NCBI GenBank assembly: GCA_964016885.1
Contig: OZ024749.1
Coordinates: forward strand, 38,502,001-38,566,000
Reading direction: 5' to 3'
Length of the DNA: 64,000 nucleotides
Source of the DNA: Eledone cirrhosa
Taxonomy: Eukaryota
This document shows, one piece after another, positions 8,452 to 63,795 of this stretch. Each line of letters starts with the position of its first letter. Within the stretch, counting starts at the first letter, position 1. A model generated the notes under the pieces. It searched no databases. It saw only the letters and a program-made list of their open reading frames with translations, and was not told the DNA's origin. Made by a program: the position numbers and the translations under genes.

Positions 8452-8685
8452 TAGGAAAAGAGTCAAGACCCCGACGGCTGAGCTCCGGCAATTTCGACAG
8501 TTAGATCCGAACTAAACCAGCTAGGTCACTACCCTAACACTACTGGTTTAGTTCGGATCTAGCTCTCGAAACTGCCGGAGCTCAGCCGTCGGGTCTTGAC
8601 TCATTTCGTATTACCCACTCTACTACAACAACTATCGAGTACTCTGGTGCGTTATGGTCCACCTGGTTCCTTACCACACTTTCTT

Positions 8686-22755: not shown

Positions 22756-24044
22756 ACCCAGATTAGTAGTTTAATAGATCGTAAAATAAAAAGCTTCTGA
22801 TGAATGGCTTAGCCCATTCCATATAAAAAAGAATGTGAAACATATGAGATTAACATTGGAAATAAAACAAGTGATATTAATTAAATTATTTTTTATAAAA
22901 ATCACAAAAAAAAAATAATGGTTCAGTATATTTTAAATGAAACTTGCTTTAAATATGATCTAGAAATCAGTAAAATCATTAATAGATATTCTATAGACAC
23001 CTAAACGATATTTAGAAAGTTTTATGTATTTATTATTTGTATTGTTTCGGCGAATTTTATATTTTATCTTAGATTTTCGTTTTCGTTTCGTTTCGTTTTT
23101 TGTTTTTTTCGTTGATAAATATATTTTGATTTTAATTATTTGTTTTGCTTTACAAAAATTTAATTCAATATATTTCAATGAAAATATGAGAATTGTGTTT
23201 TCGTTATGTCTACTGATAACATTTAATGTGCGTATTTCACATCCATGGTGAGATTAATGTTTTCAAGTGGAAGATGGTGGACTATTTTGAAACAATCACA
23301 CACAAACTCATAATCTTTCGATTTCTCTTTCATACTTCTCTCCATCTCTCTCTCAAATACGCACGCACATACACACACACGCGCGCGTGCGTGCGCGCAC
23401 GCACGCATGTACATGCGCATACACTCTTACTGTACACTCTAGATAAGTGGTTCCCAAATCAGCATGATTACCGCGAGATGTAACTAGATGCGTCGCAAAA
23501 GACTAAGATTACGTTTTAAGATGTGAAAAATACAAACTGAAATTCGTATGAAAGTTCATATATAACTCGGGAAACAAGTGGCAAACAAGTAAAGTATAGT
23601 ATCAAGTTTTGCGGAAAATAGCACAAATTGTCAACTCTATTAAGAATGAGAGGTTGGTTTGTGCGTTCAGTTTATTTTAGCTAATTAAGTTAGACATGTT
23701 ATTAAATTCTTTGTTTTAAATTTCATAGTGTAGCATCTGTTTTTATCAGTTTGATATTTGATACGATCTCAATTTTGGATCATCGATATTAAATTGATTT
23801 TTTGAAATAGGTGAAGATTTAGGGGGTCGCTCCGCCTTTGCCACGGGTTGGCCTAGTATTGCAGTAAATTTCATAAGAACTCATATTACGCTGTAAAGAG
23901 TCTATGCCTTGCTCGTTTACCAGATGGGGTAGTTTTCCAGAGGGGATTTGGTACAGGTGAGATCCAACAGGTGCGTTTGCTTTTATTGGCAGCATTACTC
24001 TCCCAAAGTATAACAATATATATATATATATTTATATATTTATA

Positions 24045-25950: not shown

Positions 25951-26120
25951 CAAAGAGGCTGTGGTAGATACCAGGTGGACAATAACACACCAGATTACTC
26001 AATACTTAGGGTAGTAGAGTGGGTTGAGCTCCGGCCGTTTCGACAGCTAGATCTGATTTAGGATCTAAGAGTCGAAACGGCCGGAGCTCAACCGTCGGAG
26101 TCCTCCTGACTCTTTTCCTA
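25948..26120 (-). mobile_element. Fold-back element, family B
   Basis: gagctccggccgtttcgac / gtcgaaacggccggagctc arms plus family B tail. Confidence 0.82.
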
Positions 26121-26153
<33 letters not shown>

Positions 26154-26162
26154 TTATATATA

Positions 26163-26330
<168 letters not shown>

Positions 26331-26409
26331 CATATATATGTATTTATATATATATATGTATGTATATATATGTATTTATATATATGTATGTATGTATATA
26401 TATATATAT

Positions 26410-26570
26410 GTCCTGGGTATGACATTAAACTACATTCAGTGGCAAGGCTCCAGTTCGGGAGTTCAGGAAATGTGGGGAATGTGGAGTTACCCCTTAGTTG
26501 TCATGACTCCTAGGTCTGCCCTGGCCCGGGGTGGTAGTACCTGTTAGGGCTCCATTTATGGGTTAAATAA
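26410..26570 (+). mobile_element. RTE-related dispersed repeat fragment
   Basis: gtcctgggtatgacattaaac..gtggtagtacctgttaggg resembles an abundant octopod repeat (recall only). Confidence 0.45.
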
Positions 26571-26659
26571 CTACCTTATTCGAGTGGCGCCGGTAAGGTA
26601 TTGTCAGCCATTGAAAAGAAATATGGAGAGTCGATCTAACAGCACTAGGGTTAGAGCCC

Positions 26660-26689
<30 letters not shown>

Positions 26690-26691
<2 letters not shown>

Positions 26692-26804
26692 ACGAAGGAA
26701 ATGTGGTAAGGAACCAGGTGGACCATAACGCACCAAAGTACTCAATACTTGAGGTAGTAGAGTGGGTAATAGGAACCAGTAAGACCCCTGGGGTCTTACT
26801 GGTT

Positions 26805-38952: not shown

Positions 38953-38955
<3 letters not shown>

Positions 38956-39088
38956 CGAAGGAAATGTGGTAAGGAACCAGATGGACCATAACGCAATAAA
39001 GTACTCAAAACTTAGGGTAGTAGAGTGGGTAATAGGAACAAGTATGACCCCGACGGCAGAGCTCTGCCGTCGGGGTCATACTTGTTCC

Positions 39089-39092
<4 letters not shown>
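38953..39092 (-). mobile_element. Family B element, perfect 60-bp palindrome centred on gagctc
   Basis: Arms 39032-39061 and 39062-39091. Confidence 0.9.
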
Positions 39093-39114
<22 letters not shown>

Positions 39115-39119
<5 letters not shown>

Positions 39120-39770
39120 GAAAATTAGAGTTAAAACTCCAATTGAAACCCTGTAACTATTAAGCTCCAAGTATAAAATACTGAGCCGATTAATAATATA
39201 TATGCAGTAAGAAACACAGTAAACCGTGTGTCTAATATTACAACCCTTGTAATATTAGACACACGGTTTACTGTGTTTTTTACTGCATATATATTATTAA
39301 TCGGCTCAGTATTTTATACTTGGAGCTTAATAGTTACAGGGTTTCAATTGGAGTTTTAACTCTAATTTTCATTTATATTTCTGCTCCCTCACAAGTCGAG
39401 CTTATTAAGTTGTGTGTGTTGGACTGTTGTTTCTATTCAATACACGCTTATCACGTTTGACTAGCGGCGCACGGGGTGATAAATTTCATCTTTCTGTGTG
39501 AACGTTGGTACATAGTGTTTGTTGCATTTAATCAGATTCTCTCGCTCATGATGCCTAAGGATTATCTGTTACAAACACACTCAGGGCGAAACAGATTAGG
39601 GATAATCTGTCCGAGAGATATAATGGTTATTGAGGCGGTTTGTATAATAATAATATATTTTTATTTTATCATTCTGTCTGCTTCTTGGTTAAATATTTCA
39701 AACAAATGTGGTTTTTCAACCCTTGTAATATTAGACACACGGTTTACTGTGTTTCTTACTGCATATATAT

Positions 39771-39780
<10 letters not shown>
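39115..39780 (+). mobile_element. Fold-back plus partial tandem (476-nt period) HHR element
   Basis: Arms ~39113-39243 and 39247-39377; direct repeat 39241-39299 = 39717-39775. Confidence 0.85.
39538..39618 (+). ncRNA. Type I hammerhead with one core mismatch (CTCATGA)
   Basis: Stem I tctctcg/cgagaga; stem III cagatta/taatctg; GAAA 39588-39591; GUC triplet. Confidence 0.82.
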
Positions 39781-39826
<46 letters not shown>

Positions 39827-40445
39827 AGATAAATCTAACAAAATATACGGTAGTGTCCAATCCGTATGAAGAACTCAATGTAATCTAAATATCATGAAAA
39901 GAGAAGATGTATTCCAAATTTTTTCGATGAAAATCACAGGAAAACAGAGTCAAGATAAATTATTAAAAATGATTTTTTTAATATAAGGAACTGTTTCTTT
40001 GTTTTTATTCATTGTTTTTATTAATTTATATATATATATATATATATTTATTTATTTATTTATTTATTTATATAATCATATATAGCCAATCGAATCCAGA
40101 CCCTTCTCAGTCTTGTTCGAGGAACCTCACCATGGTTATGTTTTGTTTTGGTCATGTCAGGGGTATGGCAGTAATCACTACGCTTGGCAAATTGCAGGTT
40201 GGTAAGGCTTTTTAACCGATAGTTGGAATATATATATATATATACTAACCAGTTCTATAAAGGAATGTATAAACACCAGTGTATATATATATATATACAC
40301 AGACATACACACACAAACAAAGAGCTATATATCAAAAAGTGTATGATATTGACAGATAACAAATACTTTTATTATTTGTAAACATTGATTTACAATAACT
40401 TTCTCCACACAGATACAGACGAACTTACAAACACACACACACACA

Positions 40446-59448: not shown

Positions 59449-59793
59449 TTGGCCGCCCTCTCATCTCTCGGTATTTTCAGCCCCATGGATTGTGTCTATT
59501 ATATTCCTTTGTTAAATTTCGAATTTCGAATACCTGAGGATGTCACCGGATTCATACACCAGTCCAGCCTCTTGTTATTTTATAATTATTTTATTATATA
59601 TATATATATATAATAAAATAATTATAAAATAACAAGAGGCTGGACTGGTGTATGAATCCGGTGACATCCTCAGGTATTCGAAATTCGAAATTTAACAAAG
59701 GAATATAATAGACACAATCCATGGGGCTGAAAATACCGAGAGATGAGAGGGCGGCCAAAGATTTAGCAGTTTCCAGTCCGGTTGGCCGCCCTC
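59448..59793. mobile_element. Family D tail-to-tail palindrome (~310 bp)
   Basis: 59448-59759 self-complementary around (TA)n at ~59603. Confidence 0.88.
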
Positions 59794-62984: not shown

Positions 62985-63156
62985 TAACGAAAGAAGTGTG
63001 GTAAGGAACCAGGTGGACCATAACGAACCAGAGTATTCAATACTTAGGGTAGTTGAGTGGGTAATAGGAACGAGTAGGACCCCGACGGCTGAGCTCAAGC
63101 CAGAAATAACCGTCGAAACGGCTTGAGCTCAGCCGTCGGGGTCTTGAACATTTTCC

Positions 63157-63160
<4 letters not shown>
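62985..63160 (-). mobile_element. Family B fold-back element
   Basis: GAAAcggcttgagctcagccGTCggggtc at 63116-63143 and its inverted copy. Confidence 0.88.
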
Positions 63161-63225
<65 letters not shown>

Positions 63226-63249
63226 ATATATATATCATTCTTAATATAT

Positions 63250-63440
63250 AAATGACTTCTACCAGACGAGAACTGTTTCATTCAAAATAAATCATCAAGG
63301 AAGCTTTCCTGGCGATTTTCTTTTCAATGAAACAGTTCTAGTCCTGTAGAAGCCATTTCTATATTAAGCATAATTTTTACACTCTACTACTGTATTGAGT
63401 ACCGTACCTCCTGTGGTTACCCCCCGATTATACCCGGGTT
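63250..63440 (+). mobile_element. Family A fold-back element with two degenerate HHRs
   Basis: Centre ~63305; right arm ttc CTGGCGA..GAAAcagttctagtcctgTAgaag. Confidence 0.8.
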
Positions 63441-63573
63441 GCACACACACACACGCATACACACACACACACGCACACACACATACACACGCACACACAC
63501 ACACGCACGCACATATATATATGTGTGTGTGTGTGTCTGTGTGTGTGTGTGTATGTATGTATATATATATATA

Positions 63574-63795
63574 TAACGAAGGAAATGTGGTAAGGAAGCA
63601 GGTGGACCATAACGCACCAAAGTACTCAATACTTAGGGTAGTAGAGTGGGTAATAGGAACGAGTAGGACCCCGACGGCTGAGCTCAAGCCGTTCCGACGG
63701 CTAATTCTGGACTAAAAAAAAAAAAAAAAAAAATGTTTTTTAAAAGAATTAGCCGTCGAAACGGCTTGAGCTCAGCCGTCGGGGTCCTACTCGTT

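What the first reader, a model, noticed from the sequence alone, without database searches (positions are those of the whole stretch)
39115..39780. Retrozyme-like 476-nt permuted monomer
39241-39299 recurs at 39717-39775 (period 476). The unit is non-coding, with one well-formed HHR (7-bp stem I, 8-bp stem III, GUC, single G5C change) in its middle, preceded by a 130-bp inverted arm. A little over one unit permuted relative to the cleavage site is what copying a circular or multimeric RNA would leave. Established: animal non-LTR retrozymes make circRNAs and are proposed to use PLE machinery. Alternative: a partial tandem PLE pseudo-LTR.
Basis: partly seen in the sequence, partly recalled or inferred. 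Interest (0 to 1): 0.75.

Follow-up and report, generated by a model that had tools for sequence, protein, structure and literature searches.

The report
Dead copy of Penelope-inserted hammerhead retrozyme
This is one likely inactive copy of an abundant non-coding repeat that carries a predicted self-cutting RNA motif; its two fixed ends and back-to-back arms match the insertion footprint of Penelope-type jumping genes, so it belongs to a known kind of element, and whether it ever passes through a circular RNA is untested.

Summary
The repeat (period 476), the 132-nt inverted arm and the hammerhead with G5C are all real. The locus is one copy of an old, dispersed, non-coding family (449-485-nt units; 866 exact hits to one motif; short tandem arrays) inserted in (TA)n. 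Most sampled hammerhead cores are intact (92 of 104); G5C is private to this copy. No RT ORF is attached in any sampled element, so this is a non-autonomous family, not a solo pLTR. The 'permutation' is not evidence of a circle: 3' ends are fixed at two points 81 nt apart, the Penelope 'tail'/two RT-start signature, and 5' ends are scattered. Back-to-back insertions join one end of each type (36 of 38), as do 28 of 30 copies of an ORF-linked Penelope family, one of which lies next door. With one, mutated hammerhead this locus is not expected to release a monomer. No RNA data were obtained; circle, linear multimer or template jump cannot be told apart. The scan has reported this pattern before for other arrays in this and other genomes. 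Verdict: new member of the non-LTR retrozyme / non-autonomous PLE kind.

The parts
39241..39775 (+). Long arm: one 476-nt unit plus 59 nt, 5'-truncated at unit position 1, 3' end at fixed site S1 (..TACTGCATATATATTATTA) running into (TA)n
39112..39243 (-). Short inverted arm: unit positions 7-138, 3' end at fixed site S2 (..CTAATTTTCATTTATAT) running into (TA)n; joins the long arm head-to-head at a 3-nt CAA microhomology (39241-39243)
39300..39378 (+). About 80-nt 'tail' between S1 and S2, present on one arm end only; inferred equivalent of the PLE tail between two RT start sites
   Evidence: PMC11167929; PMC8557442
39538..39618 (+). Type I hammerhead motif: stems I-III, extra U after A9, GUC with predicted cut after 39611; G5C at 39547 private to this copy, predicted inactivating
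39515..39579 (+). Conserved 8-bp complementarity between GUGUUUGU 5' of stem I and ACAAACAC in loop II: predicted pseudoknot or, alternatively, a helix that blocks the ribozyme fold
   Evidence: 96.5% of cells paired in 25 copies, 1 pair with a two-sided change; pair probability 0.86-0.98 in whole-unit folds, where stems I and II are <=0.12
39089..39116 (.). (TA)14 target microsatellite, left
39763..39814 (.). (TA)n target microsatellite, right
38955..39092 (.). Neighbour, separate element: miniature back-to-back insertion (long-ended arm on -, short-ended arm on +) of an abundant ORF-linked Penelope-like family; explains the 39031-39094 palindrome

Best explanation
The locus is a single, likely dead insertion of a non-coding hammerhead repeat family (non-LTR retrozyme type) that was most likely pasted into a (TA)n microsatellite by the enzyme of a Penelope-like element acting in trans. 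Shown: dispersed family, fixed 3' ends at two sites 81 nt apart, scattered 5' ends, head-to-head arms with one end of each type, both arms from the same subfamily, no linked ORF, read-through across the hammerhead cut site and the unit boundary. Inferred mechanism: a PLE RT-endonuclease (probably a dimer) cuts both strands of (TA)n; one DNA end primes at S1 and the other at S2 inside a more-than-unit-length or circular RNA; both cDNAs stop at variable points and are joined by microhomology. Here the S1 cDNA ran 535 nt and the S2 cDNA 132 nt. G5C most likely arose after insertion. The RNA template was uncut or re-ligated at the hammerhead; circle versus linear multimer is not resolved (my odds about 40:60 that a covalent circle is the usual template).
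For: Family: 146 matches from 40 of 1433 candidates scored; exact motif counts 348, 866 and 324 against 0 for reversed controls. Ends: of 104 deduplicated elements, 45 are head-to-head; of the 38 with both ends at a fixed site 36 are S1+S2 (binomial p=5e-9), and the two exceptions look like interrupted or deleted S2 arms (L225, L230); 55 of 59 one-strand pieces end at S1 (27) or S2 (28). ORF-bearing PLEs of this genome end in (TA)n with similar paired ends, and an ORF-linked family shows the short+long layout in 28 of 30 loci. About 10 of 36 pairs are not nested, so fold-back copying of one cDNA cannot explain them. Ten locus-private variants are shared by opposite arms and units of a locus always fall in one subfamily. 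Hammerhead core intact in 92 of 104, variation mostly at N7, the post-A9 bulge and loop III; helices 96% paired versus 26-54% when slid. Two internal RT start sites bounding the tail, AT-rich targets, both-strand extension and use of uncleaved RNA were shown in vitro for an anole PLE (PMC11167929, parts 1-2 of 4 read).
Against: No autonomous partner was found: the unit has no DNA similarity to 40 GIY-YIG loci or 25 loci of a further PLE family, so the mobilising family is unidentified and only 150 of 10,596 endonuclease candidates were scored. Covariation is nearly absent and the structure does not beat column shuffles (41-220 of 500). Nested whole-unit folds do not form stems I and II. Part of the hammerhead sample was selected by an intact stem III pattern, which inflates the intact count. 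This copy is itself nested with a 3-nt centre, so fold-back is not excluded for it. The known tail is 30-40 bp; here it is about 80. 151 private variants are not shared within loci, expected from ageing but uninformative on the template.
Confidence: 0.8

Rival explanations
1. One reading: the copy is a permuted monomer left by reverse transcription of a 476-nt covalent RNA circle made by hammerhead cleavage and ligation.
For: 55 of 85 arms in the 3'-anchored sample read through the cut site and 6 of 85 carry two complete hammerheads; each subfamily (unit lengths 449-485) has internally uniform multimers, up to 5 full units in one arm, which needs a monomer-to-multimer step; the unit is structured (z -4.8); mussel, coral and axolotl retrozymes make circles (PMC7229834, sections 14, 17 and passages); circular templates were proposed for PLEs (PMC4209133).
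Against: The ends are set by S1/S2, not by variable permutation; ORF-bearing PLEs show the same layout; read-through fits uncut linear RNA equally; only 1 of 9 Xenopus retrozyme dimers cleaved in vitro (bioRxiv 10.64898/2026.07.22.740005, parts 1-3 of 5); hammerhead mutants did not affect PLE insertion in vitro.
Confidence: 0.35
2. Multimers come from linear RNA only: read-through transcripts of tandem loci, or RT jumping back through the terminal redundancy of 1.1-1.3-unit loci such as this one; the hammerhead is a regulated passenger.
For: No arm begins exactly at the cut site (u372) among 124; 4 begin at u373-378, close to the ~1.6 expected if uniform (my arithmetic); many loci have more than one unit with a redundant end; stems I/II are disfavoured in whole-unit folds.
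Against: The catalytic core has been kept across subfamilies only 70-75% alike, which suggests cleavage matters in the cycle.
Confidence: 0.45
3. The locus is a truncated pseudo-LTR of an autonomous PLE.
For: All end features are those of PLE pLTRs; retrozymes are reported to be pLTR relatives in Xenopus; the ORF search was a sample.
Against: The unit repeats head-to-tail with no ORF between copies; among 59 upstream flanks (median 1.6 kb) the three same-strand PLE hits within 1.3 kb were a separate element with its own (TA)n end (L140) and one locus (L168, both arms), whose Poseidon-like flank does not continue into the unit in 24 other copies. An origin from a lost pLTR remains possible.
Confidence: 0.1
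4. Assembly artefact or DNA-level fold-back (palindrome formed at microsatellites, MITE-like).
For: Flanked by long (TA)n; 3-nt hairpin centre; other palindromes in the window.
Against: Same layout at dozens of independent loci with different junctions, arms differing by mutations, non-nested arms; unequal arm ends are unlike terminal inverted repeats.
Confidence: 0.03

Closest known systems
Metazoan non-LTR retrozymes (Cervera & de la Pena 2020, PMC7229834; Li, Clavereau & Pollet 2026, bioRxiv 10.64898/2026.07.22.740005)
   Same: Non-coding, low-GC unit with one type I hammerhead, found as monomers, dimers and short multimers, in a genome rich in PLEs; unit length inside the 51-972 bp range reported in 2026.
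   Different: Longer than the ~170-400-nt circles described in 2020; stable 8-bp stem III instead of the usual 1-2 bp; no pLTR homologue found; expression, cleavage and circles untested; this copy is a monomer, which the 2026 definition (two complete hammerheads) calls inactive. The parts I read do not describe fixed two-site ends or inverted arms for retrozymes.
EN+ Penelope-like element insertions (Craig et al. 2021, PMC8557442; Frangieh et al. 2024, PMC11167929)
   Same: [quoted passage not shown]
   Different: No ORF; tail about 80 nt rather than 30-40; both start sites end in TATA-like sequence matching the target, whereas the anole element starts at non-homologous AC-rich sites; one-of-each pairing is near-obligate here.
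Non-autonomous Chlamys PLEs such as MRC1 (PMC8557442, passage)
   Same: Non-coding elements with pLTR-like partial tandems and multicopy head-to-tail insertions.
   Different: Those generally share 3' sequence with autonomous families; none was found here. They occur in green algae.

Membership tests
non-LTR retrozyme | type I hammerhead in each unit | tested here: met
   family: core intact in 92 of 104 (sample partly selected); this copy carries G5C
non-LTR retrozyme | tandem units with at least two complete hammerheads | tested here: met
   family: 15 arms among 104 elements (enriched by targeted fetching), 6 of 85 in the 3'-anchored sample; not met by this locus, one hammerhead
non-LTR retrozyme | non-coding, no LTR/PBS/PPT, no RT ORF | tested here: met
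   PBS/PPT not searched
non-LTR retrozyme | self-cleavage | not testable with these tools
   motif and conservation only
non-LTR retrozyme | expressed as monomeric circular RNA | not testable with these tools
   no raw RNA reads were available
EN+ PLE insertion footprint | two fixed 3' ends bounding a tail, tail on one end | tested here: met
   36 of 38 inverted pairs, 55 of 59 one-strand pieces
EN+ PLE insertion footprint | variable 5' truncation with adjacent inverted copy; AT-rich/microsatellite target | tested here: met
autonomous PLE pLTR | flanks an RT + GIY-YIG ORF | tested here: not met
   (samples, not exhaustive)
retrozyme derived from an identifiable PLE pLTR (Li et al. 2026) | homology to a host PLE pLTR | tested here: inconclusive
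   none in 40 + 25 loci; most PLE families in the genome unsampled

The most novel reading that the evidence does not exclude
Each insertion is made by one Penelope protein dimer that primes both ends of a double-strand break at two different fixed sites on a single circular hammerhead RNA, so the genome records obligate twin priming and rolling-circle reverse transcription, and the conserved loop II pseudoknot is the switch that keeps the circle from cutting itself.
Probability: 0.25. Interest if true: 0.7.

Novelty: new member of a known kind. Interest (0 to 1): 0.4.

Why it matters
That PLE enzymes mobilise animal retrozymes is proposed from co-occurrence and pLTR similarity; here the insertions themselves carry the PLE footprint, and the near-obligate pairing of one S1 and one S2 end constrains how PLE inverted insertions form, a step described as undefined in PMC8557442. 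A 470-nt non-coding unit with two mapped start sites is a compact substrate for in vitro tests. This locus adds little by itself: it is a decayed monomer, it offers no evidence for a circle, and the scan has already reported the pattern on larger arrays.

Tried and rejected
Rfam: no hammerhead hit; only hairpin-driven miRNA-type matches below cut-off. RNA: no RNA holder listed; the three runs of unrecorded kind are ~1.4-Gb contig sets from one sample and cannot show expression, ends or circles; they show G at 39547 in all laid contigs, but contigs drop rare variants. Autonomous partner: none by blastn or a profile in 40 GIY-YIG loci; L168 junction with a Poseidon-like 3' region was a chance insertion; L215 has a PLE C-terminal fragment directly after its 3' end, the wrong order for an autonomous element. 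Coding potential of the 94-codon frame rejected. Pile-up of 5' ends at the cut site: not seen. Correlation between the 5' ends of paired arms: none (permutation p 0.43-0.46). A-to-G editing excess, suggested by an earlier scan note: not seen among private variants (A>G 2.37 vs T>C 2.08 per 1000). One search used a wrong column register for stems II and III and is superseded. In one search three rows had negative lengths (L068, L132, L141) and L051 was under-counted; correcting by hand leaves about 10 of 36 non-nested. Promoter not tested. Literature searches found no paper on this family or on twin priming by PLEs; subscription papers and bioRxiv supplements were not visible, and repeat libraries such as Repbase or Dfam may hold the family.

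Full report
OBSERVATION. The features are present as described: a 62-nt direct repeat at period 476, a 132-nt 99% inverted arm with a 3-nt spacer, both outer ends running into (TA)n, and one type I hammerhead motif at 39538-39618 with G5C and a GUC site. Rfam does not call it. The unit folds better than shuffles (z -4.8), though nested folds do not form hammerhead stems I and II. Unit coordinates below: u1 = 39241, cut after u371.

FAMILY. The window lies in a 3.0-Gb animal genome. A DNA search gave 146 matches from 40 of 1433 candidates. Exact motifs occur 348 times (stem III), 866 times (u1-24) and 324 times (loop II of an older subfamily), with zero reversed-pattern controls. Among 58 full units, lengths are 449-485 nt; older subfamilies are 70-80% alike, with a ~463-nt unit and the same layout. 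Tandem arrays exist, up to five full units in one arm. G5C was seen only in this copy among 104 hammerheads; 92 have an intact CUGA(U/G)GA, CGAAA and GUC (some loci were selected by an intact stem III). Variation falls on N7, on a 1-2-nt bulge after A9 and on loop III. The bulge is a described PLE-hammerhead trait (PMC4209133, passages) and a U there is compatible with activity in a viroid hammerhead (PMC3705267, passage). The four helices, including an 8-bp pairing of loop II with sequence 5' of stem I, are 96% paired in 25 copies, but there is almost no covariation and shuffles are not beaten. That G5 is essential is established knowledge, recalled.

ENDS. After removing edge-cut and duplicate loci (144 clusters to 104 elements), 3' ends fall at two points: S1 (u54-59) and S2 (u138), both ending in TATA-like sequence that merges with (TA)n. 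5' ends are spread over the whole unit. Of 45 head-to-head insertions, 38 have both ends at a fixed site and 36 are S1+S2 (p=5e-9); 7 have one non-standard end and were set aside. One-strand pieces split 27 S1, 28 S2, 4 other. About 10 of 36 pairs are not nested (with four rows corrected by hand), so two separate priming events are needed. Units and arms of a locus belong to one subfamily, and 10 locus-private variants are shared across opposite arms; gene conversion between arms is an alternative cause. This window's copy is the standard product: S1 arm 535 nt, S2 arm 132 nt, joined at CAA.

THIS IS THE PLE FOOTPRINT. Craig et al. describe 5' truncation, partial tandems, an adjacent inverted copy, a 30-40-bp tail often at only one end, and (TA)n targeting (PMC8557442, passages). 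Frangieh et al. show in vitro that the tail lies between two internal RT start sites, that both strands are cut and extended, that the protein is a predicted dimer and that uncleaved RNA is the main substrate (PMC11167929, parts 1-2 of 4). The genome holds many GIY-YIG elements (150 scored of 10,596 candidates), including a full pLTR-ORF-pLTR copy with a 938-codon open frame ending in (TA)n and several families with the Cx4CxxC motif of Neptune/Nematis type (clade label from the motif, no tree built) and similar ends. The palindrome next door (38955-39092) is a miniature insertion of another family with 13,948 motif hits; 28 of 30 sampled loci pair a long-ended with an inverted short-ended arm, none pairs two long ends, and longer copies lead back to an RT-endonuclease region (Penelope/Poseidon-like by recalled motifs).

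NON-AUTONOMOUS. The unit repeats without any ORF between copies. It has no similarity to 40 endonuclease loci. Flank searches gave no true ORF link. The 94-codon frame from the hammerhead core is not conserved. The mobilising family remains unidentified.

CIRCLE OR NOT. 55 of 85 arms in the 3'-anchored sample read through the cut site, and 6 of 85 hold two complete hammerheads, so templates were uncut or re-ligated and longer than one unit. No arm of 124 starts exactly at u372. Uniform multimers in each subfamily need a monomer-to-multimer step; rolling-circle copying (proposed in PMC4209133 and PMC7229834) would supply it, but so would template jumping through the redundant ends of 1.1-1.3-unit loci. 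Within-array differences (0-12 per unit between tandem full units) fit ageing after insertion and do not decide. Only 1 of 9 Xenopus retrozyme dimers cleaved in vitro (bioRxiv 10.64898/2026.07.22.740005, parts 1-3 of 5). This locus has a single mutated hammerhead and is not expected to release a monomer.

COMPARISON AND NOVELTY. It works like, and meets the sequence criteria of, a metazoan non-LTR retrozyme, with cleavage and circles untested; it carries the EN+ PLE footprint but is not an autonomous pLTR. Searches found no paper on this family or on a quantified one-of-each pairing; one-sided tails are known qualitatively. Earlier scan notes report the same two-armed pattern for other arrays in this genome and elsewhere; I reached my reading before seeing them, they are unchecked AI notes, and a sequence look-up found no earlier report on this unit, although a 467/468-nt family in e1-8803865 may be the same or a related one. 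Verdict: real, new member of a known kind, interest 0.4.

Noticed in passing
window 38955-39092; also 8467-8675, 26102-26705, 63000-63786: Miniature back-to-back insertions of a very abundant Penelope-like family (13,948 motif hits); most copies are tiny hairpins that look like MITEs or miRNA precursors.
   Followed up: partly
window 59500-59720: Long near-perfect palindrome centred on (TA)n, giving a spurious MIR6288 hit; geometry is tail-to-tail, as at L168.
   Followed up: no
L168 2132-3566: Two S1-ended arms face each other tail-to-tail across ~790 nt of (TA)n, the reverse of the usual layout.
   Followed up: partly
window 23706-23889 +: U2 snRNA-like copy with a damaged 5' stem, probably a pseudogene.
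   Followed up: no
L104, L136, L142, L148: A SINE-like repeat is inserted repeatedly at the S1 position (..ATTATTATAT) of older copies, splitting the tail.
   Followed up: no
L082 6010-6919; L086, L090, L099, L100, L177: Other hammerhead-bearing non-coding families (one with a 459-nt period) also end in (TA)n; microsatellites accumulate nested insertions of several families.
   Followed up: no
window 39597-39603 versus L103, L133, L137: Loop III reads GGGA in the young subfamily and UCCC in older ones, a small inversion inside the stem III hairpin.
   Followed up: no
L081, L087, L093 3' regions: Neptune-type families with long open frames have degenerate hammerhead-like cores (CAGAAGA, GCGCAAC) upstream of their ends.
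   Followed up: no
window 39820-40010: Right flank is another very high-copy repeat.
   Followed up: no
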